64,000 bases of DNA, taken from positions 2,162 through 66,161 of the forward strand of contig MFCA01000022.1 in the NCBI GenBank assembly GCA_001775095.1. The letters are read 5' to 3'. The translations under genes and the position numbers were made by a program. The DNA is from Candidatus Curtissbacteria bacterium RIFOXYA1_FULL_41_14 (GTDB lineage: Bacteria; Patescibacteriota; Microgenomatia; Curtissbacterales; GWA2-41-24). Below, in pieces: positions 4,185 through 59,022 of the stretch; positions within the stretch are counted from its first letter, which is position 1; the number at the start of each line of letters is the position of its first letter. The notes under the pieces are model-generated. The model had not been told where the DNA came from. It worked only from the letters and a program-made list of their open reading frames with translations, and searched no databases.

Positions 4185-5246
4185 TTGGTTAAACTTATGA
4201 GGAAGTCTTTGATTGTTTTAGTTATCCTAGTGGTGGTCTCGAGCGCATTTTATTTTTTAAGGCATCGGTCAAATTCAACCTTTACAAGTCCTAATTCCGA
4301 AACTCTCCAACAGAAATCAACGCCTCTTATCAAATACGCCATAGAAGCATTATCTAAAACCAATTTTAATCCCAGTCAAATTTCTCTGGGCGAACTAGTT
4401 AACAGCACGCCCGATTTTACCTCGCGGATATTTTACTTTTATGTTGATCCTTCGATAAACTCAGGACAAGGTAGAAAGGTTAGCGGGCTTATTAATATTC
4501 CCAACAATGGCACAGATTTACCGGTAATTGTGATGTTTCGCGGTTATGTTGATCGGGAAAAGTACCAAACGGGCGTTGGCACTAATCATGCCGGAGAAGT
4601 TTTTGCAAAAAATGGTTTTATTACTTTGGCCCCTGACTTTTTGGGTTATGGGGAATCTGATATGCCTTCTGAAAACCCTATGGAGGAGCGTTTTCAAACC
4701 CATACGACTGCTCTGACTTTGCTTGCGTCGGTTAAAAATTTGAATGCGGCTTTGTCGGAAGCTGGCGTTGCTGCGAGGGCGGATCCTGACAGAATTGCCA
4801 TCTGGGGGCACAGTAATGGAGGCCAAATTGCCCTAACGATTTTGGAAATTACCGGCAAGAGTTATCCCACAGTTCTCTGGGCGCCGGTTTCTAAACCGTT
4901 TCCGTATTCAATCCTTTACTATACTGATGATTTTGATGACCATGGCAGGATGTTGAGAAAAGTCGTTGCCGATTTTGAAAAGGATTATGACTCAGAGGGT
5001 TATTCACTGGCTAGTTATTTTGAAAAGATAAAAGCGCCTGTGCAGTTGCATCAAGGAGGAGCGGACGAAGCAGTTCCCCTGAAATGGTCAGATCAACTTT
5101 ATGAGCAACTTAAAGAACTAGACAGGGATATCCAATACTTTACCTACACCGGCGAAGACCATAATTTTGCCCAAGGCGCCTGGGGACAGGTTGTCAATCG
5201 GAATATTGTGTTTTATCAGAGGCAATTTGGTAGTAATAAAGAGTAA
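4185..5246 (+). CDS. Alpha/beta-hydrolase (S9 peptidase / dienelactone-hydrolase-like), N-terminally anchored. The start may be the ATG at 4197.
   Basis: Nucleophile elbow GHSNGG, a downstream HQGGADEAVP region and an N-terminal TM. Confidence 0.6.
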   Translation: MVKLMRKSLIVLVILVVVSSAFYFLRHRSNSTFTSPNSETLQQKSTPLIKYAIEALSKTNFNPSQISLGELVNSTPDFTSRIFYFYVDPSINSGQGRKVSGLINIPNNGTDLPVIVMFRGYVDREKYQTGVGTNHAGEVFAKNGFITLAPDFLGYGESDMPSENPMEERFQTHTTALTLLASVKNLNAALSEAGVAARADPDRIAIWGHSNGGQIALTILEITGKSYPTVLWAPVSKPFPYSILYYTDDFDDHGRMLRKVVADFEKDYDSEGYSLASYFEKIKAPVQLHQGGADEAVPLKWSDQLYEQLKELDRDIQYFTYTGEDHNFAQGAWGQVVNRNIVFYQRQFGSNKE

Positions 5247-5715: not shown

Positions 5716-5752
5716 CTCTGAAAAGAGATCCTTCGTCGAGTCAGACTCGACT
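5716..5752. repeat. Mini hairpin repeat AGATCCTTCGTCGAGTCAGACTCGACTCAGGATGAC, palindrome GTCGAGTC-A-GACTCGAC. A second copy lies at 45611-45646.
   Basis: Two near-identical copies read directly. The same hairpin is nested inside the element at 28115-28188. Confidence 0.55.
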
Positions 5753-5765
5753 CAGGATGACAGGA

Positions 5766-6289: not shown

Positions 6290-6400
6290 GATAGTCTATT
6301 GAAAACTATTATTCTTCGAACAAAGTGAGAAGTCTCACAGTTCTCGCTCCGGAGAGTACCAGCCGGTACCCTCCTACGCTCGAACAATACAATAACGGTT
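6290..6400. mobile_element. MITE-like palindromic element copy A. Core GGAGAGTACC-N-GGTAC(C)CTCC flanked by inverted TTATTCTTCGAACAA / TTGTTCGAGCG arms.
   Basis: Four copies in this window (6290-6400, 24961-25150, 34981-35095, 38245-38350) are alignable by eye in both orientations. Confidence 0.6.
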
Positions 6401-6465: not shown

Positions 6466-6507
6466 ATGCAAAGAGGAATTGCTACCCTTCGACTTCGCTC
6501 AGGGTAA
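6466..6507 (+). CDS. 13-aa upstream stub ORF MQRGIATLRLRSG* that re-encodes the N-terminus of the downstream DUF763-like gene (MHRGIAT) and reads into a CTTCGACTTCGCTCAGGGTAAAC element
   Basis: Codon-by-codon comparison with the start at 6521. The two Arg codons come from different families (AGA vs CGG). Confidence 0.4.
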   Translation: MQRGIATLRLRSG

Positions 6508-6520
6508 ACTTTCAATTTTT

Positions 6521-7696
6521 ATGCACCGGGGAATAGCTACATTTACACTCGATTACGGTAAGTGTCCCAGATGGCTATTTGAGAGGATGGTAAGGCTGGG
6601 GCGGGAAATGACCCAGGTCTTGGTAGATGAATACGGACCCGAGGAGTTTATCAAGCGGATTGCCGATCCGGTTTGGTTTCAGTCTTTGGGAACTGTTTTG
6701 GCTTTTGACTGGAATGCTTCAGGGCTGACCACAATTCTGACCGCCGCTCTTAAAGAAGCGATCCGCGGCCAGGAAAAAGATTTGGGAATTTTTATTTGCG
6801 GCGGCAAAGGCAAAACCTCCAGAAAGACTCCTGATGAAATAACTGGATGGGGAAGCAGGTTGGGGTTGGAGAAGCTAGTAGTTAACAATCTGATTTACAA
6901 CTCCCGAATGTCTGCCAAAGTCGATAGCAGTCTGGTTCAAGATAATTTTCAAATTTATCATCACAGCTTTTTCTTTTCCCGAGGTGGATCATGGACAGTA
7001 GTCCAGCAGGGGATGAATACTGGTAATCAGACTGCTAGACGTTACCATTGGTACAGCGGGGATATTAACGATTTAGTCTGCGAACCTCACAGCGGTATCG
7101 TTTCCCAAGCAAAAATTGACAAAATGTTGAATATGACTGCAAAGGAAAGCGGCAGGACTAGAGATACAAGCGTCGATTTGATTTCGCAAAGCTATGTGAC
7201 CGTAATGCGCGATATTGAAATTTTAAGAAAACACTCTTCAAGTTTGTCGAGAATGATCGCCCTTCGACGACGCTCAGGGCAAGCGTTGAAGCGTAAGAAA
7301 GAAGAATTGGTACTACTTGAGCTTGCAGACAGTGAGTTTAGCTATCACCCGGTTGTAAGTGAGGATTTTTCCAGAAGTAAGTATCTTGAAAAAATTCTTG
7401 CAAAGCTGACTGGAGAGAAACCGAGAACTTATGAGGAACTATTGGCAACAGAGGGTGTTGGGCCAAAAACAATTCGGGCACTGGCACTGGTTTCTGAAAT
7501 TATCTACGGTGCAAAGCCTTCATACGAAGATCCTGCGCGCTACAGTTTCGCCCACGGCGGCAAAGACGCAACGCCTTATCCGGTAGACAAACCGACTTAC
7601 GATCAGACAATCGAGATTTTGAAAAATGCACTCAGAAAGACCAGAATCAGCTCTGTTGAAAAAGACAAAGCTCTTAGAAGACTAGGGAATGGATAG
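6521..7696 (+). CDS. DUF763-like protein. The ORF is open upstream to 6479, but ATG 6521 is the more likely start. The CCTTCGACGACGCTCAGGGCAAGC motif is in-frame at 7258-7284.
   Basis: FDWNASGLTTILTAALKEA and GVGPKTIRALALVSEIIYGAKPSYEDPARYSFAHGGKDATPYPVD resemble DUF763 from memory. Confidence 0.4.
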   Translation: MHRGIATFTLDYGKCPRWLFERMVRLGREMTQVLVDEYGPEEFIKRIADPVWFQSLGTVLAFDWNASGLTTILTAALKEAIRGQEKDLGIFICGGKGKTSRKTPDEITGWGSRLGLEKLVVNNLIYNSRMSAKVDSSLVQDNFQIYHHSFFFSRGGSWTVVQQGMNTGNQTARRYHWYSGDINDLVCEPHSGIVSQAKIDKMLNMTAKESGRTRDTSVDLISQSYVTVMRDIEILRKHSSSLSRMIALRRRSGQALKRKKEELVLLELADSEFSYHPVVSEDFSRSKYLEKILAKLTGEKPRTYEELLATEGVGPKTIRALALVSEIIYGAKPSYEDPARYSFAHGGKDATPYPVDKPTYDQTIEILKNALRKTRISSVEKDKALRRLGNG

Positions 7697-19062: not shown

Positions 19063-20148
19063 TTGTTTGGAATGAAAGTGGTACAGATAAGAAAATACGG
19101 AGGGAATGAAGTTTTGGAGGTTAGTGATATACCAAAATCAAAACCCGGTAAAAATCAGGTATTGGTTGTGGTACATGCGGCAAGCGTTAACCCCTTTGAT
19201 TTGGCTGTCCGCTCAGGAGGAATGAGAAGTGTCTCATCCTTACAATTACCGTTTACTCTGGGCGGCGATTTTGCCGGAGTTGTTTTAGAAACTGGTGAAG
19301 ATGTAGTTGATTTTAAAATTGGTGATGAAGTTTACGGCAGCGCAATTGTATTTGGCAGTGGTTCCGGAGCTTTTGCCCAAGAGGTTAGTGTGAACATCGC
19401 AAATTGCGCTTTAAAGCCTAAAGGGGTAAATATGCAAGAGGCAGCCGCGCTGCCGCTTGTCGGATCAAGCGCTGTGCAGGCGCTTGAGGAACATATCAAA
19501 TTAAAAAATAATCAAAAGATATTGATCCATGGCGGCGCAGGCGGAATCGGCCATATTGCGATCCAGCTTGCCAAATCGAAAGGCGCGTACGTTGCCGCAA
19601 CAGTAGGGGACAAAGATAGGGAATTTGTCGAAAGGCTTGGCGCGGATGAGGTGATCGACTATAAACTTCCGAGGGCTAAGAGCCCTCGGTCTTGTTCTTT
19701 AAGTTTATATGAGCGAGCAGATGACTCAAATACTCGGAAGTATGTATTCTCTCGCATTCAGCCGCGGACTGATAGTCCACGGTATTCTGCGAGCGAATAT
19801 AAAAATCAGAAATTCGAAGATATCTTATCAGATTTTGATGCAGTGTATGATACTGTCGGAGGCGATGTCACAGAAAGGTCTTTTAGAGTTTTGAAAAAGG
19901 GCGGAATACTTGTTTCTATGAAAGGACAGCCTGATGAGAAGCTAGCTCAAAAATACCAGGTGTTTGCTATCGGACAATTCACAAAAATTAACGCAGAGCA
20001 CTTGAAGCGGCTTTCAGAACTGGTCGATGCAGACGTTGTCAAAGTTCATGTCGACAAGATTTTTACACTTGATGCGATAAAAGATGCTTTCGAATATCAA
20101 GAGATCGGCCATCCCCAAGGAAAGGTTGTTGTTAAAATTGGAAATTAA
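19063..20148 (+). CDS. Zn-independent MDR-family NADPH:quinone oxidoreductase, carrying a ~45-aa in-frame insertion encoded by a repeat element
   Basis: MKVVQIRKYGGNEVLEV...VLVVVHAASVNPFD and a GxGxxG-type GGAGGIGHIAIQ. The insertion lies between VIDYKL and FEDILSDFDAVYDTVGG. Confidence 0.7.
   Translation: MFGMKVVQIRKYGGNEVLEVSDIPKSKPGKNQVLVVVHAASVNPFDLAVRSGGMRSVSSLQLPFTLGGDFAGVVLETGEDVVDFKIGDEVYGSAIVFGSGSGAFAQEVSVNIANCALKPKGVNMQEAAALPLVGSSAVQALEEHIKLKNNQKILIHGGAGGIGHIAIQLAKSKGAYVAATVGDKDREFVERLGADEVIDYKLPRAKSPRSCSLSLYERADDSNTRKYVFSRIQPRTDSPRYSASEYKNQKFEDILSDFDAVYDTVGGDVTERSFRVLKKGGILVSMKGQPDEKLAQKYQVFAIGQFTKINAEHLKRLSELVDADVVKVHVDKIFTLDAIKDAFEYQEIGHPQGKVVVKIGN
19664..19798. mobile_element. 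~135-bp palindrome-rich repeat lying in-frame inside the quinone-oxidoreductase gene. The reverse-complement copy is at 58243-58378.
   Basis: RC alignment with 58243-58378 is about 85% identical by eye. Includes the CCGAGGGCT-AAG-AGCCCTCGG and CCGYGGACT-RAT-AGTCCACGG hairpins. Confidence 0.65.
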
Positions 20149-21306: not shown

Positions 21307-21321
21307 AAGGGGTTGAAACCT

Positions 21322-21396
21322 ATATTGTTCGAGCCCTTCGTCGAAGCTCAGGGCGAGAACTGTCAGACTTCTCACTTTGTTCGAAGAAGAATAAGG
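21322..21396. mobile_element. MITE-like element variant with the same TTGTTCGAGC...TTGTTCGAAGAA arms as the other copies but a CCCTTCGTCGAAGCTCAGGGCGAG core
   Basis: Arms are shared with the copies at 34981-35095 and 24961-25150. The core belongs to the CTTCG...CTCAGG motif family. Confidence 0.5.
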
Positions 21397-24960: not shown

Positions 24961-25150
24961 TTAGCTTTGAGCTTATTAACCCTTATTGTTCGAGCCCCTC
25001 GTTGAAACTCAGGACGAGAACAACATGCTTCGCATATTGTTCGAGCACAGGAGAGTACCATCCGGTACTCTCCGTAGCGAGAACTTTCTGACTTCTCACT
25101 TTGTCGAGTCTAACTCGACTTTGTTCGAAGAATAACAAGGTTTTCAACAA
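24961..25150. mobile_element. Composite, nested MITE-like element: the palindromic GGAGAGTACC core plus a CCCCTCGTTGAAACTCAGGACGAG module and a GTCGAGTCTAACTCGAC hairpin module
   Basis: Contains the arm motifs twice (TTATTGTTCGAGC at about 24983 and 25037), with different cores between them. Confidence 0.5.
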
Positions 25151-25203: not shown

Positions 25204-25479
25204 ATGCAGACTGTAATTCATATAAAGGCTGATAAAGAAGTTAAGGAAAATGCCGCTAAGACCGCGCGGGATCTTGGTCTGAATTTAACAGATGTAATCA
25301 ATGCGTCTTTGCGCAATTTTATCAGAACCCGGGAAATAATTTTTTCTGATACTCCTCAAATGACCCCCGAACTTGAGAAACTCTTGGACAGGGTCGAAGA
25401 AGATATAAAGCATAACCGCAACATAGTTGGTCCTTTTAAGAGCGCTAAGGCGGCTAACGAGTATCTTGATTCCCTATGA
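25204..25479 (+). CDS. dinJ: RelB/DinJ-family antitoxin
   Basis: Ribbon-helix-helix N-terminus IKADKEVKENAAKTARDLGLNLTDVINASL. 4-nt overlap with the toxin gene. Confidence 0.6.
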   Translation: MQTVIHIKADKEVKENAAKTARDLGLNLTDVINASLRNFIRTREIIFSDTPQMTPELEKLLDRVEEDIKHNRNIVGPFKSAKAANEYLDSL

Positions 25480-25733
25480 TTATCAAATATCATAAGGATT
25501 TTATAAAAGACTTCAAAAAACTCCCCAAAAGAACCAAGGAAAAATTCAAAGAGAGGCAATTATTTTTTGAAAAAGATGAATTTGACCCTGTGTTAAACAA
25601 CCATGCGTTAAAAGGCAAATGGTTAGGATATAGGAGTATAAATGTGACAGGTGATATCAGAGCAATATTTAAGAGAGAGTCAGAAAGTGTACTGTTTGTC
25701 GCAATTGATACCCACAGTAATTTGTACGGATAA
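25476..25733 (+). CDS. yafQ: YafQ/RelE-family mRNA interferase toxin
   Basis: LPKRTKEKFKERQ...NHALKGKWLGYRSINVTGDIRAIF is typical of YafQ. Confidence 0.6.
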   Translation: MIIKYHKDFIKDFKKLPKRTKEKFKERQLFFEKDEFDPVLNNHALKGKWLGYRSINVTGDIRAIFKRESESVLFVAIDTHSNLYG

Positions 25734-26557: not shown

Positions 26558-27637
26558 ATGAATCTGTCAGTTGGAATAGTCGGGTTACCGAACGCTGGGA
26601 AGTCGACGCTTTTTAATGCCCTTCGCTCCGCTCAGGGTAAACTCTCCGGGCTGGCTACGGTTGCGAATTATCCTTTTACGACAATTGAGCCGAATGTCGG
26701 AATAGTAGAAGTCCCTGACAAACGTCTTAAGAAGTTAAAAGAAGTTGTTGAAAAAAGCGAGGGATTGAACCCCAACTTCAAAGTTATCCCGGCAATTGTA
26801 AAATTTGTGGATATCGCCGGCCTTGTTAAAGGTGCCCATAAGGGTGAAGGTTTGGGAAATCAATTCCTCTCGCATATCCGTGAAGTTGATGCGATTGTTT
26901 TTCTGCTTCGCGACTTTGAAAACCCGGATGTTGTTAGAACCGGTGAAAATCCGGATGCGGATCTGGCGGTTTTAAAAAGTGAGCTACTTCTTAAGGATTT
27001 GGAGACAATAGAAAGGCAACAAGAAACAAGAAACAAGAAACAGGAAACAAGTAACAAGTTCAAAAGTGCTTTGGAGAAGCTTCAGGAGGGGATAGCAAAG
27101 GGGGTTATGGCAAAGGATATTCAGTTGGACCAGCAGGAGCAACAGGAAGCAAAAAGCTTAAGCCTTTTAACATCAAAGGAATTTTTGATTGTCGTAAACA
27201 GTAATGAGGGTGATCTAAACAAAGAGCCACCGATTAATGGGTCGATTAGGATTAGTGCCAAACTTGAGAGTGAACTAGCTGATTTATCCCGTGAGGAGCA
27301 AGAGGAATATCTAAAAGAACTGGGTGTTTCGGAACCGGGACTTAATCGGTTGATTAAAATAGCCTATGAAACTTTAGGACTTTGTACATTCTTTACTGCC
27401 GGACCGAAAGAAGTTCGTGCCTGGACTGTTCGATGCGGTTCGCTTGCTCCTGCGGCAGCTGGCGTAATCCACAGCGATTTTGAAAGAGGATTTATCGCGG
27501 CAGATGTAATTAGTTGGGAAGAACTAGTTAAGATTGGCGGCTGGCAAAAAGCAAAAGCGGGAGGACTTATTAAAACAGTCGGAAAGTCGGAAGAAATTAA
27601 AGACGGGATGGTTGTGGAATTTAAGTTTAGTGTTTGA
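26558..27637 (+). CDS. ychF: Ribosome-binding ATPase YchF. The CCTTCGCTCCGCTCAGGGTAAAC element is in-frame near codons 22-30, and a heptamer SSR lies in the helical domain.
   Basis: G1 motif [18 protein letters not shown]-terminal TGS domain [25 protein letters not shown]. Confidence 0.8.
27018..27059 (+). repeat. Six tandem heptamers (AACAAGA-like) inside ychF, encoding [14 protein letters not shown]
   Basis: CAACAAGAAACAAGAAACAAGAAACAGGAAACAAGTAACAAG read directly. 42 nt, so the frame is preserved. Confidence 0.6.
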
Positions 27638-27671: not shown

Positions 27672-28118
27672 ATGCGCTACGATTTAATGGTTGCTGTTGG
27701 TATCAAGGATGCGGACTCACTTGCCGGCAAACTTGAGAAATTTATTAAAGATGCTGCGGCGCAAGAGGTAAAAGTTGAGAAGCTGGGCAAAAAGACCTTA
27801 GCTTATCCTATTGCCAAGCAGCTAGAGGCCGAGTATTTCCTGTTTAATTTCGAGGCCCCGGCAGAGGCAATTTCTGCAATTACTCAAAACCTAAGACTTG
27901 AGCGAGAGACAATATTGAGGTATCTTTTAACAAAGGTAACAAAAGTAACAAAAGGAACAAGGGGTACAAAGGGAACAAAAGAGTTAATAGAATCAGAGGG
28001 TGAGAAAACAAAAGAAACAGGGAAAGTTGTGGTAAAGACGGTAGTAAAGGCAGGTACAAAGGTAACGAAAGGAACAAAGGGTACAAAAGGAACAAAAGTG
28101 AAAGGAAAGAAAAGTTGA
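27672..28118 (+). CDS. rpsF: 30S ribosomal protein S6 with a lysine-rich low-complexity C-terminal extension
   Basis: MRYDLMVAVGIKDAD...KTLAYPIAKQLEAEYFLFNFEA is an S6 core. The tail is KVTKGTKGTKGTK. Confidence 0.8.
   Translation: MRYDLMVAVGIKDADSLAGKLEKFIKDAAAQEVKVEKLGKKTLAYPIAKQLEAEYFLFNFEAPAEAISAITQNLRLERETILRYLLTKVTKVTKGTRGTKGTKELIESEGEKTKETGKVVVKTVVKAGTKVTKGTKGTKGTKVKGKKS
27934..28100 (+). repeat. Two blocks of tandem 9-nt repeats (GGTAACAAA / AGGAACAAA / GGGTACAAA) inside rpsF, encoding (V/G)TKG repeats
   Basis: Read directly. The repeats are multiples of 3 and in-frame. Confidence 0.55.
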
Positions 28119-28200: not shown

Positions 28201-28764
28201 ATGGCAAGTAGAGCATCGTTGAACAAAGTATTATTAATTGGAAATCTGACAAGAGATCCGGAGTTGAGATATACGCCTTCAGGCGCGGCGGTTTGTTCTT
28301 TCGGGCTGGCTACAAATAGAGTTTACGTTGCTTCTGACGGTACTAAAAAAGAGGAAGCGGAATTTATCAGGATCGTTTCCTGGAATAAACTGGCCGAGCT
28401 TTGTTCGCAGCTTCTTTCAAAAGGCAGGAAAGTTTATGTTGAAGGAAGATTGCAGACGAGAAGCTGGGAGACCCCCGATGGAATAACTAAGCAGACAACG
28501 GAAGTAGTTATTGATGACATGAGAATTCTGGATTCCCGCAGAAGTTTCGAGGAAGCCAGCACGGGGGAAAATATCCCTTATATAGAAAATACATCTGCAA
28601 GCCAGACAAAAGTCAAAGAGCCATCTTCCTTCGCTAAAGCTACGGAGGACAAGGAGAGTCTAAGGGTCAAAGAGTCAAAGGGGACAAAAGGGTCAAAAGA
28701 GCCAAAGGATTCAAATGGAGGCGGAGATGAGGATAAAATAGATTTAGACGATTTGCCATTTTAA
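28201..28764 (+). CDS. ssb: Single-stranded DNA-binding protein
   Basis: OB-fold N-terminus LNKVLLIGNLTRDPELRYTPSGAAVCSF...W. Acidic tail ending in DDLPF. Confidence 0.8.
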   Translation: MASRASLNKVLLIGNLTRDPELRYTPSGAAVCSFGLATNRVYVASDGTKKEEAEFIRIVSWNKLAELCSQLLSKGRKVYVEGRLQTRSWETPDGITKQTTEVVIDDMRILDSRRSFEEASTGENIPYIENTSASQTKVKEPSSFAKATEDKESLRVKESKGTKGSKEPKDSNGGGDEDKIDLDDLPF

Positions 28765-31403: not shown

Positions 31404-31458
31404 ATCCCAGTGCACACCCCCGGGGTGCGCGTCGGCAATCGTCTATTGCTCACCCCGG
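31404..31458. repeat. Double palindrome CACACCCCCGGGGTGCG-N22-CTCACCCCGGGGGTGAGC lying between the convergent genes htrA and dedA. Likely a bidirectional terminator and a member of a mobile repeat family whose paralogue sits inside prfA.
   Basis: Palindromes read directly. Preceded by the hairpin TTCCGAATAAAATTCGGAA and (AATTTCA)x4. Confidence 0.6.
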
Positions 31459-31472
31459 GGGTGAGCTATGAA

Positions 31473-33599: not shown

Positions 33600-34517
33600 T
33601 TATTCATGTAGGGCATCAATTATTTTATCCAATTTGCCATTCATTACTTCTTCCAGGTTGTGCCATGACTTATTAATTCTATGGTCTGTAATGCGATTCT
33701 GGGGATAATTATAAGTGCGGATTTTTTCGGAGCGGTCGCCCGTGCCCAGTTGGGCTGAGCGTTGAGAACTGAGTTGAGAGGATTGCTTTTCTTCTTCAAG
33801 TTGATAAATTTTTGAGCGCAAGATTCCCATAGCGATTTCGCGGTTTTGGCCTTGTGAACGTTCGGTTTGAGCCTTAACAACAATTCCGGTCGGTTTGTGT
33901 TTAATTCTGACGGCGGTTGAAACTTTATTAACATTTTGACCGCCGTGGCCGCCGGAACGGAAAGCTTCAAATTCAATATCGGCAGGATCAATAATAACTT
34001 GAGTCGGAGGTACTTCCGGCAAAATCGCAACTGTAGCAGTTGAGGTATGAATACGGCCGGATGACTCGGTGACAGGAACTCTTTGAACCCGGTGGACACC
34101 TGATTCATGTTGAAGTTTTTCAAAAACGTTTTTGCCGGAAATTTTAACAATTACAGTCTTGATATTTCCAAGTCCGCCTTCGGTGCAGTCCAATTCTTCA
34201 AACTGCCATCTGTTGTTGACGGCAAACTTTTGATACATTCGCAGAAGATCGGCTGCGAAAAGCCCGGCTTCATCGCCGCCGGCAGCGGAGCGGATTTCTA
34301 GAATGACAGACGAGTTTGTGGGCCCACCCCCGGGGTGCGATCCGGGTGACGTCAAGACTTCACCCCGGGGGTGAGTCAGGGCAATTTTTTCTTCTTCAAG
34401 CTTCTCTATTTCTTCCTGCGCGAGCTCGGCCATAGAAGGGTCAGCTGACACTAATTCTTGAGCTTCTTTAATCTTCTTTTCAATATTTTCAATTTGTTGT
34501 TTTTGATAATCGGTCAT
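33600..34517 (-). CDS. prfA: Peptide chain release factor 1 with an in-frame palindromic-element insertion in the N-terminal domain
   Basis: GGQ motif [14 protein letters not shown]1-type PVT tripeptide in [16 protein letters not shown]. The extra segment [21 protein letters not shown] is encoded by the element. Confidence 0.85.
34318..34384. mobile_element. Double-palindrome element (CACCCCCGGGGTG ... CACCCCGGGGGTG) inserted in-frame within prfA. Paralogue of 31404-31458.
   Basis: Same two palindromes and a similar spacer as the intergenic copy. The ORF remains open through it. Confidence 0.65.
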
Positions 34518-34980: not shown

Positions 34981-35095
34981 TGTTAAAAACCCTTATTGTT
35001 CGAGCACAGGAGAGTACCGTCCGGTACTCTCCGCAGCGAGAACTCAAACTTCTCACGTTGTTCGAAGAATAATAGTTTTCAATAGACTATCGATG
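34981..35095. mobile_element. MITE-like palindromic element copy C
   Basis: CCCTTATTGTTCGAGCACAGGAGAGTACCGTCCGGTACTCTCCGCAGCGAGAAC...TTCTCACGTTGTTCGAAGAATAA, a near-perfect RC of copy D. Confidence 0.65.
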
Positions 35096-38134: not shown

Positions 38135-38445
38135 AATTTCTAATTGCCTTAATTACTAAAAACCCTAAACTCTAAATTCTAAACTCCTGCCTGCCGGCAG
38201 GCAGGCTAAACAATTTCAAAATACAAAACTCAAATGATCAAAAAAGAGATAGTCTATTGAAATCCTTATTCTTCGAACAACGTGAGAAGTTTGAGTTCTC
38301 GCTGCGGAGAGTACCGTCCGGTACTCTCCTGCGCTCGAACAATATGTTTATCATCCTGTTTTGAATTTTAGATTTACCTCATTTGGATTTATTTAGGATT
38401 TAGAAATTAGAAATTAGAATTTTACTCTTTAGGTCTTTTAGCTTA
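38135..38445. repeat. AT-rich element copy 2, interrupted by a nested MITE-like copy D (38245-38350) and an extra CCTGCCTGCCGGCAGGCAGG palindrome. Lies between divergent gene starts.
   Basis: Both flanks align with copy 3. The MITE-like copy D (38245-38350) sits between them. Confidence 0.6.
38245..38350. mobile_element. MITE-like palindromic element copy D, nested inside the AT-rich element
   Basis: Reverse complement of copy C. Confidence 0.65.
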
Positions 38446-45206: not shown

Positions 45207-45603
45207 CAGGTTCAGTCTTTGGCTACCGGCAGTCCTGTTTGTAATAACTCTCGATCAAATCCTCAAAAATATCGCCCCAAAATTCTTGTCTGTTTATTGC
45301 AACGAGGGTATTGCCTTTGGATTTGCGAAAACTCCTTATAGTCAAATAATAGTTTTGGCGGTTTTGTTAATACTTGTATTTTATGCTTCGGGGAGTCGAG
45401 AAGTTTCCACTAAGTACGGTTTTGCGTTGATCTTAGGCGGGGGAATTTCCAACTTTATTGACAGACTGACAGCAGGTTGCGTCAGAGACTTTATTGATTT
45501 GGGATTCTTTCCAAGTTTTAATCTGGCAGACGCAGCGATAAGTGCGGGGGTCGGAATTTTAATAGCTTTTGTCATTCTGAGACCGAAGGGCGAAGAATCT
45601 TAA
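45181..45603 (+). CDS. lspA: Lipoprotein signal peptidase II
   Basis: NEGIAFGF and FNLADAAISAGVGILI signatures. Confidence 0.75.
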   Translation: MSLRQRKINRFSLWLPAVLFVITLDQILKNIAPKFLSVYCNEGIAFGFAKTPYSQIIVLAVLLILVFYASGSREVSTKYGFALILGGGISNFIDRLTAGCVRDFIDLGFFPSFNLADAAISAGVGILIAFVILRPKGEES

Positions 45604-45610
45604 TGTAGAC

Positions 45611-45646
45611 AGATCCTTCGTCGAGTTGGACTCGACTCAGGATGAC
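45611..45646. repeat. Mini hairpin repeat, second copy (AGATCCTTCGTCGAGTTGGACTCGACTCAGGATGAC). Its ATG is the first in-frame start of the downstream ORF.
   Basis: Near-identical to 5716-5752. Confidence 0.55.
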
Positions 45647-45662
45647 TTTTCTGGAGGAATTA

Positions 45663-48188: not shown

Positions 48189-48338
48189 ATGGGTAATTTC
48201 GGAGGATTCTATATCAGCAGGTCGCCTCGGTACAGTCCTTCGACTGCGCTCAGGACTTCATGCCGATGGCGCTTTTCTGATATAAAATTATTGTATTCGC
48301 ACATGGATATTCATAAAAAATATGAAGTAGGAGAGTAA
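48189..48338 (+). CDS. 49-aa upstream stub ORF beginning MGNFGGFYISR. It mimics the N-terminus of the next gene (MGTYGGFYKGE), reads through a repeat element and stops 3 nt before that gene's ATG.
   Basis: Read directly. AAGAGGTG upstream. TAA at 48336-48338. Confidence 0.4.
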   Translation: MGNFGGFYISRSPRYSPSTALRTSCRWRFSDIKLLYSHMDIHKKYEVGE

Positions 48339-55932: not shown

Positions 55933-57219
55933 ATGAAGCTTTACGAGTTTGAAGGACATCGGATTCTTGCAAAAGTCGGGATAGAAAGCCCTTTTTTTGT
56001 TGCTTGTTCGAATTTAGACGAGGTAAAACAGGCTCGCAAACGTCTTAAATTTCCAATGGTTGCCAAAGTGCAAGTACTTTCCGGCAGGCGGGGCAAGTCT
56101 GGCGGAGTAAAATTTCTCTCAAACGAGAAACAACTTTTAACCTTTGCAAAAGAAATGTTTGGGAACAAATTTAATGGGGAGGACGTCAGATTTATAAGTT
56201 TTTCTAAAAAAATCGAGATCGAAAAAGAACTCTACCTTTCGATTGCCTACGATACTATCAAAAAAAATCCCTTTTTTCTTTTTTGTGAAGAGGGTGGCGT
56301 TGATATCGAAGAGGTAAAAAAGAGGAGTCCTGAAAAGATTGTTAGAGTAGATATTGATTCGTTGACCGGACCGACGAAAAAGAATCTGGAAGCGCTGTTT
56401 AGGCATGAACTCGTCGATTTTGCAACCCGTCTTTGGGATGCTTTTTGGCGATTTGATTGCCGTATGGTGGAGATTAACCCGTTAGCACTTGTCAGAGAAT
56501 CTGGATCTCACCCCCGGATTGAAGTCAAGACGAAATCTGGGGTGCACCTCGGGGATGGGCATAGTTATGTCGCTATTGATGCCAAAATCATCCTTGACGA
56601 TGCAGGTTTGGCAAGACATCGCGATTTGGATGTTTTGCCAAAGGGCGCAGCGAGTGCGGTACCGACAGAGAGAGAACTGGCAGCAAGAAAGGTTGATGAA
56701 GGTGACTGGCGGGGAACCGCCGGCTCTATTTTTATTGAGCTTGACGGTGACATCGCTGTTTTAGCGTCCGGCGGCGGAGCCAGTCTTTTGACAATGGATG
56801 CGCTGACTTCAGCCGGCGGTAAAGGGGCAAACTATACTGAATATTCTGGTAATCCACCGGCAGAAAAAGTTGAAAAATTAACAAAAATTACTTTGGATAG
56901 AGAAAATCTCAGCGGGTGTTTAGTTTGTGGAGCAGTAGCCAACTTTACAGACATTTATGAAACCTTAAAAGGTTTTACTGAGGGTTTAAGGCAGGTCAGA
57001 CCAAAGCCAAGTTATCCAATCGTCATCCGACGGGGAGGTCCGGGACAGGAGAAGATATACGAAGTAATTGGCAAGATTGCCCAAAAAGAAGATTACGACA
57101 TTCATCTTTTTGGGCCTGAGACACCGATATCAGTTGCGTGTCAAAAGATGGTAGAACTATCTAACGACTATAAAATTCGAAATCCGAAGTACGAAAGTAA
57201 AATCGATTCGTATGATTAG
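55933..57219 (+). CDS. Succinyl-CoA-synthetase-beta-like ATP-grasp subunit (SucC/CcsA/AclB family)
   Basis: Aligns by eye along the full length with SucC (KVQVLSGRRGKSGGVKF, VEINPLAL, LASGGGASLLTMDAL). Confidence 0.7.
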   Translation: MKLYEFEGHRILAKVGIESPFFVACSNLDEVKQARKRLKFPMVAKVQVLSGRRGKSGGVKFLSNEKQLLTFAKEMFGNKFNGEDVRFISFSKKIEIEKELYLSIAYDTIKKNPFFLFCEEGGVDIEEVKKRSPEKIVRVDIDSLTGPTKKNLEALFRHELVDFATRLWDAFWRFDCRMVEINPLALVRESGSHPRIEVKTKSGVHLGDGHSYVAIDAKIILDDAGLARHRDLDVLPKGAASAVPTERELAARKVDEGDWRGTAGSIFIELDGDIAVLASGGGASLLTMDALTSAGGKGANYTEYSGNPPAEKVEKLTKITLDRENLSGCLVCGAVANFTDIYETLKGFTEGLRQVRPKPSYPIVIRRGGPGQEKIYEVIGKIAQKEDYDIHLFGPETPISVACQKMVELSNDYKIRNPKYESKIDSYD

Positions 57220-57285
57220 TATCCATTAGTATATTGGTATCAATGCTAATATACGAATTTATGCTAATTATACAAATATGAGTAT

Positions 57286-58176
57286 ATGGCCATTTTAGTC
57301 AATAGAGATACGCGAGTTTTAATTCAAGGAGTTACAGGTAGATCAGGAACGCAAGTTACGGGCGAGCTATTGGACTATGGTATGAGAGTACTTGCAGGAG
57401 TAACTCCGGGTAAGGGCGGCCAAGAGATAGAGGCGGTGCCGGTTTTTAATTCAATCAAAGAAGCGGTTGAACAAATCGGACCAGTTGACGTCTCGATGGT
57501 TTATGTTCCGCCACTTCTTGCTTATGAAGCAGCGATTGAAGCGATTGAAGCGCAAATTCCCTTAATCCACATTTTCGCCGAGAAAATTCCGATTTTTGAT
57601 ACTTGCCGAATTCTTTCGATGGCCGCTAAAAAAAACGTCCGGGTTTTAGGACCGGCTTCAGTCGGAGCAATTTCTCCAGGCGAAGGTAAGATTGGTTCAA
57701 TCGGCGGACCCAAGCCGGAGGCAGTTTTTTCAAAAGGACCGGTCGGTGTAGTTTCCAGGTCTGGCGGGATGTGTGCCGAGCTTGGTCTTTTAATTTCAAA
57801 TGCCGGTCTTGGGCAGTCAACGGTTGTTGGTATCGGCGGGGATTTGCTTATTGGAATGGACTTATCCGATGTGCTTTTGAATTTTGAGGCAGATGCGCAA
57901 ACAAAAGTTGTGGTGGCTTTTGGTGAAGTTGGGGGTAGTCAAGAGATAGAAGCTAGTAGACTTTTGAAAAATGGCCAGGTAACTAAACCTGTAATTGTTT
58001 TTCTGGCAGGAACTTTTGCTGAAAGTTTGCCAAAAGATACCAGTCTTGGTCATGCCGGAGCTATTGTCGGTCTGGAAACAACAATGAAGGAAAAGATCAA
58101 GACGCTTAAAGATTGCGGTGCAGTTGTTGCCGAAAAATTTGAAGACATACCATTACTAATTAAAAAGTCTCTATAA
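57286..58176 (+). CDS. Succinyl-CoA-synthetase-alpha-like subunit (SucD/CcsB family) with the phosphohistidine loop
   Basis: VLIQGVTGRSGT, GVTPGKGG, SRSGGM and the active His in SLGHAGAIVG. Confidence 0.75.
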   Translation: MAILVNRDTRVLIQGVTGRSGTQVTGELLDYGMRVLAGVTPGKGGQEIEAVPVFNSIKEAVEQIGPVDVSMVYVPPLLAYEAAIEAIEAQIPLIHIFAEKIPIFDTCRILSMAAKKNVRVLGPASVGAISPGEGKIGSIGGPKPEAVFSKGPVGVVSRSGGMCAELGLLISNAGLGQSTVVGIGGDLLIGMDLSDVLLNFEADAQTKVVVAFGEVGGSQEIEASRLLKNGQVTKPVIVFLAGTFAESLPKDTSLGHAGAIVGLETTMKEKIKTLKDCGAVVAEKFEDIPLLIKKSL

Positions 58177-58242
58177 ACATCCTTATAAATATCTGAAAGC
58201 CCTGTTTAGCATTATTGATTTTGATTTTGATGATTATTTATA

Positions 58243-58378
58243 TTCGCTCGCAGAACACCGTGGACTATTAGTCCACGGATGAGGAGCGAGAGAATACATA
58301 CTTCCGAGGAGCGGGATGTTCTGCTCGCTCATGTAAACTTAAAGAACAATACCGAGGGCTCTTAGCCCTCGGAAGTTT
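58243..58378. mobile_element. Intergenic copy of the ~135-bp palindrome-rich repeat that is in-frame in the oxidoreductase gene
   Basis: RC alignment to 19664-19798. Contains perfect hairpins CCGTGGACTA/TTAGTCCACGG and CCGAGGGCTCTTAGCCCTCGG. Confidence 0.65.
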
Positions 58379-58415
58379 ATAATATTTGTATCCGTGAATT
58401 AATTCATAGATACAA

Positions 58416-58853
58416 ATGGCGCAAATTTCTAAAAGACAATTAGGCAGGAAACTTGAGTTGAAAGTTTACGATTCTTTTTGGAGAGTAATAGCAAATATTA
58501 AAAATAGAGAAGAGGTCTCTGACTTTTTTTCCGACTGTTTGACTCGAACCGAGCGGGTTTATTTGGCAAAAAGGATGGCTATCGCGGTACTTTTGTCAAA
58601 AGGTTATGATTACCGATCTATAAGTAATATGTTAAAAGTTTCCACAGGGACGGTGGGAAGAGTGGCAAGTAAAATAGAAGAGAAAGGCTGGAAACTTTTT
58701 GTCAGGAAACTCGAGGGTTTAGAAGATTGGGATAAGTTTTGGCATGATATGGAGAAACTTTTGATGAGGTCTACAGGTGCAGGGAGAAGGATGTTTTTAA
58801 GCGAGGAAGAAATCGAAGGTATCGTCAGGAAGCATAAAAGATTGTCTTCATGA
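58416..58853 (+). CDS. YerC/YecD (TrpR-like) DNA-binding protein
   Basis: LTRTERVYLAKRMAIAVLLSKGYDYRSISNMLKVSTGTVGRV resembles the Trp-repressor-like YerC fold. Confidence 0.55.
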   Translation: MAQISKRQLGRKLELKVYDSFWRVIANIKNREEVSDFFSDCLTRTERVYLAKRMAIAVLLSKGYDYRSISNMLKVSTGTVGRVASKIEEKGWKLFVRKLEGLEDWDKFWHDMEKLLMRSTGAGRRMFLSEEEIEGIVRKHKRLSS

Positions 58854-59022
58854 ATTAATTCATGAAGACAAGGTTCTTTTTGATTTTAAAAATGTAGTTT
58901 TAAGTTTCATGACTGAAAGAGAAGATCTCGATTCTGATTTTGAACTCACCAGGGGAGTTTGCTTTTCAGGGCGAAGATGGGCGAAGCTAGAATGATTAGC
59001 TGAATTTAGGTATACTTAAACC

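What the first reader, a model, noticed from the sequence alone, without database searches (positions are those of the whole stretch)
26618..26645. Short CCTTCG-N-GCTCAGG motif family embedded in-frame in ychF and in the DUF763-like gene
Seen in sequence. GCCCTTCGCTCCGCTCAGGGTAAAC lies inside ychF, encoding ALRSAQGKL in the otherwise conserved G1-to-G2 region (FNAL...NYPFTTIEP). CGCCCTTCGACGACGCTCAGGGCAAGC lies inside the DUF763-like gene at 7258-7284. Relatives occur in intergenic elements: 6485-6509, 21331-21360 (CCCTTCGTCGAAGCTCAGGGCGAGAAC), 24990-25015 and 48236-48262. The motif therefore behaves as a module that can reside both in MITE-like elements and inside coding sequence.
Basis: seen in the sequence. 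Interest (0 to 1): 0.6.

Follow-up and report, generated by a model that had tools for sequence, protein, structure and literature searches.

The report
Mobile hairpin repeat inserted inside genes
The motif is a real short hairpin-forming repeat scattered through this Curtissbacteria (candidate phyla radiation) genome, and copies of 21-24 bases have landed in frame inside housekeeping genes such as ychF, much as palindromic repeats do in Rickettsia; relatives of it occur in many bacterial phyla.

Summary
Observation confirmed. CTTCG-N3-9-CTCAGG occurs 6 times against 0.10 expected. A structure-aware model finds 9 copies, 8 on the + strand.

The motif is a small hairpin: a 4-6 bp stem closed by T-A, a 2x2 TC:TC internal loop (GA:GA on the other strand), a G-C pair, a variable tip and a short 3' tail.

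Orthologues with empty sites show clean in-frame insertions. These are 21 nt in ychF (7 residues at the end of helix 1, before switch I), 24 nt in DUF763 and 21 nt in an S9 hydrolase turn. Relatives also carry inserts in RecR and CysS.

Filled alleles are patchy among Curtissbacteria: 16/120 YchF and about 28/121 hydrolases. Part of this comes from recombination.

The same loop, with stems that covary, occurs across bacterial phyla. It is absent from E. coli and from Rfam.

Best reading: a REP/RPE-like non-autonomous hairpin repeat, tolerated only in surface loops of proteins. No transposase was found and the mobilising mechanism is unknown.

Intragenic REPs and RPEs are already known, so this is a new variant of a known kind. 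The pan-bacterial loop conservation and the CPR setting appear undescribed.

The parts
26617..26639 (+). Hairpin copy inside ychF: tgccct-TC-G-CTCCG-C-TC-agggta, followed by the tail AAAC.
   Evidence: Structural scan. Covariance model hit at 28.8 bits, E=2.9e-5. RNAfold reproduces stem / 2x2 loop / 2 bp / triloop at -8.4 kcal/mol, z=-2.3.
26621..26644 (+). The 21-nt in-frame insertion in ychF, adding residues R23-L29 (RSAQGKL). The phase is ambiguous by 3 nt because CTT and CTC flank it. The left arm GCC CTT is native Ala-Leu codons.
   Evidence: Empty sites: L133 'GCC CTT TTA AAA AAG', and likewise L131, L132, L005. Filled ancestral-like allele: L134 'GCC CTT [CGC TCC GCT CAG GGT AAA CTC] TTA CAA GGT'. 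PDB YchF alignments show a 5-6 residue gap. AF2 model: helix 15-26, pLDDT<50 for residues 29-42.
26558..27637 (+). ychF (redox-regulated ATPase YchF), the host gene.
   Evidence: Pfam MMR_HSR1 + YchF-GTPase_C. PDB 2DBY at E=5.7e-88. 100% identical to the Candidatus Curtissbacteria RIFOXYC12_FULL_41_11 protein.
7259..7282 (+). 24-nt (8-codon) in-frame insertion GCCCTTCGACGACGCTCAGGGCAA in the DUF763 gene ('ALRRRSGQ').
   Evidence: Empty sites in L126 and L128: 'ATG ATT | GCG CTT AAA AGG'. L127 has a diverged copy at the same codon boundary. CM hit at 32.4 bits.
4449..4469 (+). 21-nt in-frame insertion CCTTCGATAAACTCAGGACAA ('PSINSGQ') in a beta-turn of the S9/DLH hydrolase gene (4185-5246).
   Evidence: 90 of 121 orthologues have the native turn 'YVDGKK'. 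About 28 carry 7-8 extra residues, placed either D|G or G|K. CM hit at 19.7 bits, E=0.007, not in the training set.
6486..6520 (+). 35-nt insert (motif plus AAACTTTCAATTTTT) seven codons into the ancestral DUF763 start. It is flanked by a diverged 20-nt duplication of that start: 6466-6485 ATGCAAAGAGGAATTGCTAC and 6521-6540 ATGCACCGGGGAATAGCTAC.
   Evidence: L126 has the same arrangement. L127 and L128 have neither the motif nor the duplication. CM hit at 34.1 bits.
21317..21360 (+). Intergenic copy nested in the outer frame TTGTTCGAGC...GCGAGAAC, 3' of the ZIP transporter gene. The core hairpin is 21333-21354.
   Evidence: Repeat family D13. The fold shows two stacked 2x2 loops at -14.5 kcal/mol, z=-2.4. 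CM hit at 29.3 bits.
24978..25021 (+). Degenerate sister of 21317-21360 (86% identical), first of three adjacent hairpin elements after the DNA_alkylation gene.
   Evidence: It falls below the CM threshold because TTCG has become CTCG.
48234..48257 (+). Intergenic copy with a compensated stem: agtcct...aggact.
   Evidence: CM hit at 29.0 bits.
5728..5758 (+). Copy whose tip is expanded into a 7-bp palindrome: atcct-TC-GTCGAGT CAG ACTCGAC-TC-aggat, with tail GAC.
   Evidence: Families D5/D14. CM hit at 22.2 bits, independent of the training set. Fold at -15.5 kcal/mol.
45567..45650 (.). Inverted doublet: a minus-strand copy (45567-45600) and a plus-strand copy with a palindromic tip (45611-45650). 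The outer ends TTTTGTCATYCTGAG are inverted repeats. The minus-strand copy supplies the last codons and the stop of LspA (VILRPKGEES*).
   Evidence: CM hits at 19.4 and 21.4 bits. Translation.

Best explanation
The ychF segment is one copy of a dispersed, non-autonomous, REP-like hairpin repeat.

Architecture of the unit (about 20-25 nt):
- A 4-6 bp stem closed by T-A.
- A 2x2 TC:TC internal loop, which is a tandem G.A pair on the complementary strand.
- A G-C pair.
- A variable tip of 3-6 nt, or a nested palindrome.
- A short 3' tail (AAAC, AAGC, GAAC or GACA).

Shown:
- Copies sit between genes, nested in larger repeats and in each other, as inverted doublets, and as 21-24-nt in-frame insertions inside genes.
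- Inside genes they add 7-8 residues at surface loops or turns: the end of helix 1 before switch I in YchF, a beta-turn in the hydrolase, and linkers in DUF763, RecR and CysS.
- Orthologues with precise empty sites exist.
- Alleles with and without the insert are patchy, and recombination spreads some of them.

Inferred:
- The repeat spreads as a folded single strand, recognised in trans through its conserved loop and internal loop rather than its stem sequence. REPs and IS200/IS605 ends are handled this way by HUH/Y1 enzymes.
- Spread is probably tied to replication, given the strand bias.
- Selection then keeps only intragenic copies whose length is a multiple of three, that carry no stop codon, and that lie in permissive loops.

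The enzyme is unidentified.
For: Excess and family resemblance:
- 6 hits against 0.10 expected.
- The CM finds 9 copies at E<0.01. Four of them were not used to build it.

Hairpin:
- In a cross-phylum set retrieved by loop only (52 sequences), the covariation score is 0.502 against 0.183 for shuffles (0 of 500 reach it). Slid registers score at most 0.152. 63 cells change on both sides against 25.8 expected.
- The window itself shows GCCCT/AGGGC, GTCCT/AGGAC, ACCCT/AGGGT and ATCCT/AGGAT.

Insertion status:
- YchF: a 5-6 residue gap against 3 solved structures. 104 of 120 orthologues read 'NALLKKQVAxSANYPF'. The DNA shows a 21-nt insert.
- DUF763: a 24-nt insert against two empty sites.
- Hydrolase: 90 of 121 orthologues have the native turn, and inserts sit at two adjacent positions, so there were at least 2 events.
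- RecR has a 22-residue, triple-nested insert. CysS also carries an insert.

Permissive-loop filter:
- A different module (SAFAKASVGQAGFAKA) sits 3 codons away in the same YchF loop in P0080, P0084 and P0085.
- The DUF763 site carries about 24 different inserts, including the motif in antisense ('GGACPERSRG').
- The AF2 model places the insert at the end of helix 15-26, followed by a stretch with pLDDT<50.

REP-like behaviour:
- Intergenic clusters of several hairpin types.
- Inverted doublets in the window, in Sphingobium and in Moraxella.
- Up to 22 copies per roughly 1-Mb Sphingobium replicon, all unannotated.

Strand bias:
- 8 of 9 window copies lie on the leading (+0.12 GC skew) strand.
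- Across phyla, 41 of 59 do so (p=0.004).
- The ratio is 13:3 where flanking genes give no orientation.

Precedent: REPs and RPE-4/RPE-6 inside genes, and REP superfamilies spanning phyla with no dedicated transposase (PMC3733652).
Against: - No transposase, integrase or RAYT was found among about 75 ORFs of the window or in the Pfam listings of the related loci. A tblastn with an E. coli RAYT sequence recalled from memory found nothing in 2.6 Mb of fetched loci (a weak test).
- No strain-level insertion polymorphism was seen. The only near-identical contig, L211, carries every copy except the hydrolase one. That copy lies within the 105-nt direct-repeat deletion, not a clean empty site. Recent mobility is therefore not shown.
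- The two DUF763 inserts differ at 5 of 24 positions, which matches flank divergence. One old insertion followed by losses or recombination is as good an account as two events.
- YchF alleles are mosaics.
- Stems vary within single genomes while the loop stays fixed. This fits selection on a function at least as well as copy-and-paste.
- The hairpins are only moderately stable, with z about -2.
- Only one copy has a target duplication, and it is unusually long at 20 nt.
Confidence: 0.6

Rival explanations
1. The hairpin is a functional RNA (or DNA) element, kept by selection because a conserved host factor binds its loop. Candidate roles are mRNA stabiliser, processing site or regulatory site. 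It multiplies by duplication and recombination rather than transposition, and intragenic copies act on the mRNA.
For: - The loop and the internal loop are conserved across phyla while stems covary, even within one genome.
- Credible internal in-gene copies are mostly sense. That covers 5 different genes in Curtissbacteria and 6 of 7 in loci with GC<0.55.
- Intergenic copies favour co-directional gene pairs, 12 against 4.
Against: - No Rfam family matches.
- Copies lie in every kind of context, including divergent promoter regions, with 14 of 79 intergenic copies there.
- There is no fixed distance to starts or stops.
- The mRNA strand carries the weaker UC:UC form rather than the stable tandem G.A form.
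- Antisense copies exist (LspA C-terminus, P0190 DUF763).
- Nested insertions and clean empty sites look like insertion events.
- It is absent from all 5,426 E. coli genomes, so no universal factor requires it.
Confidence: 0.2
2. No dedicated mobile-element enzyme is involved. Copies arise by template switching or short-patch gene conversion, primed by microhomology between a native sequence such as GCC CTT and an existing copy elsewhere in the genome.
For: - The left arm of the ychF hairpin is the native Ala-Leu codons GCC CTT, which are present at empty sites.
- The DUF763 insert starts with GCC CTT next to native GCG CTT.
- Half-modules are reiterated in tandem in L098: CCCTTCGA-CCCTTCGA... 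and GCTCAGGGCAAGCAAGCTCAGGG.
- Mosaic YchF alleles show that recombination is active.
Against: - The hydrolase target (GAT|GGA AAA) and the site at the DUF763 start (GCTAC|ATTT) share no such microhomology.
- It does not explain why the same loop is conserved in distant phyla, nor the strand bias.
- The 20-nt duplication at 6466-6540 is not predicted by simple conversion.
Confidence: 0.15
3. The match is a chance low-complexity coincidence, or convergent selection for a peptide such as SGQ or AQGK in loops.
For: Part of the ychF motif (GCC CTT) is native coding sequence. The peptides are small and polar, as expected for loops.
Against: - 6 hits against 0.10 expected.
- 27 of 30 positions match between a coding and a non-coding copy.
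- The same DNA is read in different frames (LRxxSGQ, PSxNSGQ, LRSAQGK) and in antisense.
- Copies are abundant between genes.
Confidence: 0.02

Closest known systems
Rickettsia palindromic elements (RPE; RPE-4 and RPE-6 are classed with CGTC-tagged REPs in PMC3733652)
   Same: Both are short palindromic repeats that insert in frame into housekeeping genes. They add a peptide segment at tolerated sites without destroying the protein, and they also occur between genes. Both are found in a small, host-dependent, AT-rich genome.
   Different: No sequence relationship was shown. The unit here is 21-24 nt, whereas RPE-1 is about 100-150 nt. The host is a CPR bacterium. The hairpin has a conserved 11-12-nt loop region with a 2x2 mismatch. 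The family extends far beyond one genus.
REP / REPIN elements mobilised by RAYT (HUH/Y1) transposases
   Same: Both are dispersed, imperfect 20-40-nt hairpins with an internal mismatch and a short unpaired tail. Both form clusters of different hairpin types (BIME-like) and inverted doublets. Both lie mostly downstream of or between genes, and occasionally inside them.
   Different: There is no GTAG tag. No RAYT was found in the window or the related loci. Stems vary within a genome while the loop is fixed, whereas REPINs are near-identical copies. The loop is shared across phyla, whereas REP sequences are usually lineage-specific.
CGTC-tagged REP superfamily (Di Nocera et al. 2013, PMC3733652)
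   Same: Both are a cross-phylum hairpin repeat family with no dedicated transposase, frequent head-to-head dimers and intragenic copies. Read on the G.A strand, the window copies at 5728, 45613 and 45567 start TGTC-AT...AT. TGTC is an accepted variant of the tag, and the stems open with A-T, A-T.
   Different: - The copies in ychF, in DUF763 and at 6487 have GTTT or GCTT in place of the tag.
- Stems are 5 bp plus a 2x2 mismatch, not 8-9 bp.
- Loops are 11-12 nt or nested, not 4-5 nt.
- The motif strings are absent from that paper's text and held supplements.
Mobile GC clusters and double-hairpin elements of fungal and algal mitochondrial genomes (from my own knowledge)
   Same: Both are GC-rich hairpins spreading in an AT-rich genome, sometimes inside coding or rRNA sequence.
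   Different: Different hosts and sequences. The resemblance is of behaviour only, and it was not tested here.

Membership tests
REP/REPIN-RAYT | Short imperfect palindrome that folds into a stem-loop, present in many dispersed copies. | tested here: met
   9 copies in 64 kb at E<0.01 and 7 in 175 kb of related genomes. Covariation score 0.502 against 0.183 for shuffles. Predicted folds.
REP/REPIN-RAYT | Conserved unpaired GTAG (GYRG) tetranucleotide at one end. | tested here: not met
   On the G.A strand the tails read GTTT, GCTT, GTTC or TGTC. GTAG appears in only one copy, overlapping the stem at 6487.
REP/REPIN-RAYT | A RAYT (Y1 HUH transposase) gene in the genome, typically flanked by the repeats. 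| tested here: inconclusive
   No Y1_Tnp or any other transposase Pfam hit in about 75 window ORFs or in the related loci. A tblastn with a RAYT sequence recalled from memory found nothing in 2.6 Mb. The whole genome was not available.
REP/REPIN-RAYT | Inverted doublets (REPINs). | tested here: met
   Window 45567-45650, with inverted ends TTTTGTCATYCTGAG. Also L129 and L130. Most window copies are singletons.
CGTC-tagged REPs | Terminal CGTC, TGTC or CCTC tag. | tested here: inconclusive
   TGTC is present in the copies at 5728, 45613 and 45567 and in the cross-phylum types with a GACA or GACG tail. It is absent from the ychF, DUF763, 6487 and 48238 copies.
CGTC-tagged REPs | An 8-9 bp stem opening with A-T, A-T, and a 4-5 nt loop. 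| tested here: not met
   The stem is 4-6 bp and is interrupted by a 2x2 TC:TC mismatch. The loop region is 11-12 nt or a nested palindrome.
Rickettsia palindromic elements | In-frame insertion in otherwise conserved protein-coding genes, with orthologues that lack it. | tested here: met
   YchF. DUF763. Hydrolase. RecR and CysS in a relative.
Rickettsia palindromic elements | Sequence similarity to RPE consensus sequences, and Rickettsia as host. | not tested
   No RPE consensus was available in the tools. The host is Candidatus Curtissbacteria.
MITE | Terminal inverted repeats of 15-30 bp plus a short target-site duplication. | tested here: not met
   Single modules have no TIRs beyond the 5-bp stem. 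Only the doublet at 45567-45650 has 15-nt inverted ends. The one duplication seen is 20 nt (6466-6485 / 6521-6540). The coding inserts have none.
Intrinsic terminator | GC-rich hairpin directly followed by a T-run, at 3' ends of transcription units. | tested here: not met
   No T-run follows the hairpin. The 6487 copy has TTTTT only 14 nt downstream. Copies lie inside genes and in divergent intergenic regions.
Curated structured RNA (Rfam 15) | Match to a covariance model. | tested here: not met
   Only a tRNA-Leu hit in the window at gathering thresholds. Nothing overlaps the motif in 8 multi-copy loci at E<=1.

The most novel reading that the evidence does not exclude
The window's motif is the CPR branch of an unrecognised hairpin superfamily that spans the bacteria. 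Its loop (T-TCGACARGCTC-A and 12-nt variants), its 2x2 TC:TC (G.A:G.A) internal loop and its GAAC/GACA tail are held constant from Patescibacteria to Proteobacteria, Actinomycetota, Bacteroidota and Cyanobacteria. The stems covary, which would imply an unidentified, widely distributed trans-acting factor: a mobilising enzyme or a binding protein. In CPR bacteria this system would be an ongoing source of new peptide segments in essential proteins such as YchF, CysS and RecR.
Probability: 0.25. Interest if true: 0.7.

Novelty: new variant of a known kind. Interest (0 to 1): 0.45.

Why it matters
- It shows that the compact genomes of CPR bacteria carry a REP/RPE-like repeat that remodels loops of essential proteins. 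This matters for annotation: spurious N- and C-terminal extensions, odd 'LRxxSGQ', 'PSxxSGQ' or 'VILxxKxE' peptides, and misplaced start codons.
- It matters for alignment-based phylogeny of CPR, and for understanding how small genomes gain protein sequence.
- The filled and empty alleles are convenient strain markers.
- If the cross-phylum conservation of the loop reflects a shared factor, that gives a concrete handle on a long-standing gap: how REP families without a dedicated transposase (PMC3733652) are made and maintained. The handle is to profile which gene co-occurs with the hairpin.

Tried and rejected
- Known RNA family: Rfam at gathering thresholds on the window, and at E<=1 on 8 multi-copy loci, found nothing.
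- Fragment of a universal RNA (tRNA T or D arm, rRNA, tmRNA) captured at breaks: rejected. 5,426 E. coli genomes have no match, and the resemblance to tRNA arms was only by eye.
- Phage origin: only partial matches of 19-21 nt inside phage genes.
- Terminator: no T-run follows the hairpin, and copies occur in divergent regions and inside genes.
- RAYT or another transposase nearby: Pfam on all window ORFs and tblastn with a RAYT sequence recalled from memory found none.
- Independent recurrent insertion at the same ychF codon: an NJ tree scatters the filled alleles. However, sister pairs are recombination mosaics, so counting events from the tree is unsafe. The claim is limited to at least 2 events per loop, and only where inserts differ in position or type.
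- Recent mobility: the only close relative (L211, 99.99% identical) carries every copy except the hydrolase one, which lies inside the unrelated 105-nt deletion.
- Literature: translated and DNA strings of the motif gave no paper. Nothing links CPR with REP, REPIN or RPE. The strings are absent from PMC3733652 and its supplements.
- The metagenome scan with YchF returned mostly distant phyla, and only L131-L134 were useful.
- A LexA-box or CsrA-site resemblance of the tails was considered and dropped, because spacing and consensus do not fit.
Full report

The window has 41% G+C and a GC skew of +0.12 along its whole length. It comes from a Candidatus Curtissbacteria genome (Microgenomates, CPR): the YchF protein is 100% identical to that of RIFOXYC12_FULL_41_11.

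The expectation is 0.10, and 0 of 100 dinucleotide shuffles reach 6. A relaxed pattern adds the degenerate copy at 24996 and a weaker relative in the SSB tail at 28628.

The copies are alike beyond the pattern. The ychF copy and the copy at 6487 share CCCTTCG(A)CTYCGCTCAGGGTAAACTYTC, 27 of 30 positions with one gap.

**2. Anatomy**

Every copy can be written as:
- a 4-6 bp stem closed by T-A;
- TC;
- G, a variable tip, C;
- TC;
- the stem complement;
- a short tail.

Stems in the window differ by compensated changes: GCCCT/AGGGC, GTCCT/AGGAC, ACCCT/AGGGT and ATCCT/AGGAT. RNAfold returns this same shape for the ychF, 6487, 7262 and 21336 copies. Energies are -8 to -15 kcal/mol and z is about -2, so the hairpins are only moderately stable.

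On the complementary strand the two TC dinucleotides become a tandem G.A mismatch in a pyrimidine-GA-purine context. From general knowledge, that is a stable arrangement.

The tip can be 3-6 nt, or a whole palindrome. Examples are 5728-5758 and 45613-45643, CCTTCG[TCGAGTCAGACTCGA]CTCAGG. The module itself sits inside the outer frame TTGTTCGAGC...GCGAGAAC at 21317-21360 and 24978-25021. Elsewhere the same frame encloses a different long hairpin (family D2).

I built a covariance model from 58 copies, most of them from other genomes. It finds 9 copies in the window at E<0.01. Four of these were not in the training set: 5726, 45611, 4445 and 45567. Eight of the nine are on the + strand.

The copy on the - strand (45567-45600) forms an inverted doublet with 45611-45650. 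It also encodes the last nine codons and the stop of LspA.

**3. Are the copies inside genes insertions?**

*YchF.* Three solved YchF structures align with a 5-6 residue gap opposite this segment. Of 120 close orthologues:
- 104 read NALLKKQVAxSANYPF;
- 13 read [10 protein letters not shown]...;
- 3 carry a different GC-rich module, NALLKK-SAFAKASVGQAGFAKA-ANYPF, three codons away.

At the DNA level, empty sites read GCC CTT TTA AAA AAG CAG GTT (L133; likewise L131, L132, L005). L134 reads GCC CTT [CGC TCC GCT CAG GGT AAA CTC] TTA CAA GGT AAA, a clean 21-nt insertion. In the window allele the next codons have diverged further and two have been lost.

The left arm of the hairpin, GCC CTT, is therefore native coding sequence.

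An AlphaFold model (mean pLDDT 84) puts residues 15-26 in helix 1 and gives pLDDT<50 for residues 29-42. The insert thus extends the end of helix 1 into the flexible segment that leads to switch I.

*DUF763.*
- Empty sites: ATG ATT | GCG CTT AAA AGG (L128) and ATG ATT | TCT TTA AGG CGT (L126).
- Window: ATG ATC [GCC CTT CGA CGA CGC TCA GGG CAA] GCG TTG AAG CGT.
- L127: [GCC CTT CGG CTT CGC TCA GGG CGA] at the same boundary.

The two inserts differ at 5 of 24 positions, which is no more than the flanks differ. Common descent with later loss or allele exchange is therefore not excluded.

This linker is a general hot spot. 97 of 121 orthologues have the 6-residue native segment. The others carry varied inserts, including the motif in antisense ('GGACPERSRG').

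*S9/DLH hydrolase.* 90 of 121 orthologues have the native turn YVDGKK. About 28 have 7-8 extra residues (PSINSGQ, PSTSSGF and others). These sit either between D and G, as in the window, or between G and K, so there were at least two events. One orthologue has a further insert nested inside.

*The start of DUF763.* The window and L126 share the arrangement [ATGCAAAGAGGAATTGCTAC][35-nt insert with the motif][ATGCACCGGGGAATAGCTAC...]. L127 and L128 have neither the insert nor the duplication. The insert landed seven codons into the gene, and a 20-nt duplicate of the start restores the reading frame. The upstream pseudo-start reads MQRGIAT-LRLRSG-stop.

*Relatives.* RecR of L126 has a 22-residue insert built of three nested modules. 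CysS of L126 and L128 carries 'DPS...LRSGR'.

The same DNA is read in different frames (LRxxSGQ, PSxNSGQ, LRSAQGK) and occasionally in antisense. This excludes selection for one particular peptide.

**4. Distribution among orthologues**

A neighbour-joining tree scatters the filled YchF alleles. However, the sister pairs P0079/P0114 and P0098/P0113 are identical over the C-terminal 260 residues and divergent over the N-terminal 100.

Allele exchange by recombination therefore contributes to the pattern, and I do not count independent insertions from the tree.

**5. Beyond this lineage**

The hits come from Bacteroidota, Cyanobacteria, Chloroflexota, Acidobacteriota, Proteobacteria, Actinomycetota, Spirochaetes, Planctomycetes, Nitrospirota and several CPR groups, and they include cultured isolates.

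These matches are not chance:
- the spacer is nearly always ACAA, ACAG, GCAA, ACTCC, ACTTC, CTTC or CTAC;
- the 3' flank is CGAACGG, TGACA, CAGGCT, CAAGC, TAAAC or ACC.

I then searched the fetched loci for the loop alone (TCGACARGCTC). This returned 52 further distinct copies whose stems were not selected for. Their stems read GGGCT/AGCCC, ATGGT/ACCAT, GTGCT/AGCAC, ATGCT/AGCAT, GGGGT/ACCCC and so on, and often differ within one genome.

On this set the covariation score is 0.502, against 0.183 for shuffles (0 of 500 reach it) and at most 0.152 for slid registers.

Other distribution results:
- Sphingobium megaplasmids hold up to 22 copies per Mb.
- Moraxella, Comamonas and Polaromonas plasmids also carry copies.
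- In these plasmids all copies lie in unannotated intergenic DNA, sometimes as inverted doublets.
- 5,426 E. coli genomes have none.
- Phages have only partial matches.
- Rfam has no family for it.

**6. Orientation**

In the window the TC strand is on the + strand in 8 of 9 copies. The + strand is both the leading strand and the sense strand of the neighbouring genes.

Across phyla, the TC strand lies on the positive-skew strand in 41 of 59 loci with |skew|>0.03 (p=0.004). Where the flanking genes are convergent or divergent, and so give no orientation, the ratio is 13:3.

In loci with GC<0.55, copies inside ORFs are sense 6 to 1, and co-directional intergenic contexts are 12 to 4.

Both a replication-linked and a transcription-linked bias fit these numbers, and the data here cannot separate them.

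**7. What it most likely is**

The behaviour is that of a REP-like, non-autonomous repeat:
- dispersed copies;
- nesting within other elements;
- inverted doublets;
- clean empty sites in orthologues;
- presence both in coding and in non-coding DNA;
- survival inside genes only in loops.

Its intragenic copies resemble Rickettsia palindromic elements.

The constancy of the loop and internal loop, with free covariation of the stem, suggests recognition of a folded single strand by a trans-acting protein. This is an inference by analogy with IS200/IS605 ends and with REP-RAYT. No such protein was found: none of about 75 window ORFs has a transposase, integrase or Y1 domain, and none appears in the related loci.

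The published survey of REPs (PMC3733652) already reports three relevant things:
- REPs inside genes;
- REP superfamilies that span phyla;
- a CGTC-tagged superfamily, which includes RPE-4 and RPE-6, that lacks a dedicated transposase.

Three window copies, read on the G.A strand, begin TGTC-AT...AT as that superfamily does. The ychF, DUF763 and 6487 copies do not. Stem and loop dimensions also differ from the superfamily's definition, so I do not file the motif as a member.

**8. Rivals**

*A selected RNA or DNA binding site.* This is supported by loop conservation and the sense bias. Against it: the lack of any positional rule, the weak form of the hairpin on the mRNA strand, the existence of antisense copies, and the clean insertion junctions.

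*Template switching or short-patch conversion primed by microhomology.* This is supported by the native GCC CTT arm and by reiterated half-modules in L098. It is not supported at the hydrolase site or at the DUF763 start site.

*Chance, or convergence on a peptide.* Excluded.

**9. Novelty and verdict**

The phenomenon, a palindromic repeat inserted in frame in genes, is known. The new elements are:
- this particular hairpin architecture;
- its presence in CPR housekeeping genes, including the G1-G2 loop of YchF;
- the apparent conservation of its loop across bacterial phyla.

For these I found no description in the searchable literature, and that library is incomplete. I rate it a new variant of a known kind, of moderate interest.

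Noticed in passing
window 25035-25085(+), 34994-35044(+), 6336-6386(-), 38291-38341(-): A second family of long hairpins, TTGTTCGAGC-[ACAGGAGAGTACC..GGTACTCTCCGTA]-GCGAGAAC. Two copies are 96% identical. They use the same outer frame (with a tandem G.A) that encloses the motif at 21317 and 24978. The full composite unit of about 85 nt ends ...TGTSAGACTTCTCAC-TTTGTTCGAAGAATAA.
   Followed up: partly
window 4439-4554 versus L211 6649-6659: A 99.99%-identical contig from another sample lacks 105 nt (35 codons) of the hydrolase gene, including the motif copy. The deletion lies between two 11-nt direct repeats, TTATGTTGATC. It is either a strain-level in-frame deletion by repeat slippage or an assembly variant.
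   Followed up: partly
window 45567-45603: The C-terminus of LspA (VILRPKGEES*) and its stop codon are supplied by an antisense copy of the hairpin. The ATG of the neighbouring rluA-like ORF (45642) lies inside the tail CTCAGGATGAC of the partner copy, so that annotated start may be spurious.
   Followed up: partly
window 28628-28645 (SSB tail); YchF of P0080, P0084, P0085 (L003 10070-10120): A second CPR module type, CCTTCGCTAAAGCT(A/T)CGG..., read as 'SFAKATEDK' or 'SAFAKASVGQA'. It occurs in the SSB C-terminal tail here and in the same YchF loop in other Curtissbacteria.
   Followed up: partly
window 27921-28107, 28675-28726, 60507-60549: Tandem 9-nt repeats encoding (K/T)(G/V)T-type triplets. 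They form C-terminal extensions of ribosomal protein S6, SSB and RuvC (D1).
   Followed up: no
window 31412-31465 and 34322-34375; 19745-19782 and 58241-58278: Two further small palindrome families, CACCCCCGGGGTG...CACCCCGGGGGTGAG and CCGYGGACT..AGTCCACGG. They are unrelated in sequence to the motif (D10, D15).
   Followed up: no
window 55933-59763: Three adjacent genes with ATP-grasp_2 + Citrate_bind, CoA_binding + Ligase_CoA, and the citrate synthase C-terminal domain. Together they form an ATP-citrate-lyase-like set, which is unexpected in a metabolically reduced CPR genome.
   Followed up: no
YchF proteins P0113, P0114; L126 2190-2300 (RecR); L126 4535-4564 and L128 CysS: Other housekeeping proteins of Curtissbacteria carry GC-rich in-frame inserts. 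YchF has a second insert of 27-51 residues ('RDSIASLQNDKKGSQNDKGG...'). RecR has a 22-residue insert made of three nested modules. CysS has 'DPS..LRSGR'.
   Followed up: partly
window 25204-25733: A YafQ/ParE-type toxin gene with a small upstream partner. It lies directly downstream of the cluster of three hairpin elements at 24978-25135.
   Followed up: no
whole window: A uniformly strong positive GC skew (+0.08 to +0.17 per 8 kb) with about three quarters of the genes on the + strand. The window lies within one replichore.
   Followed up: no
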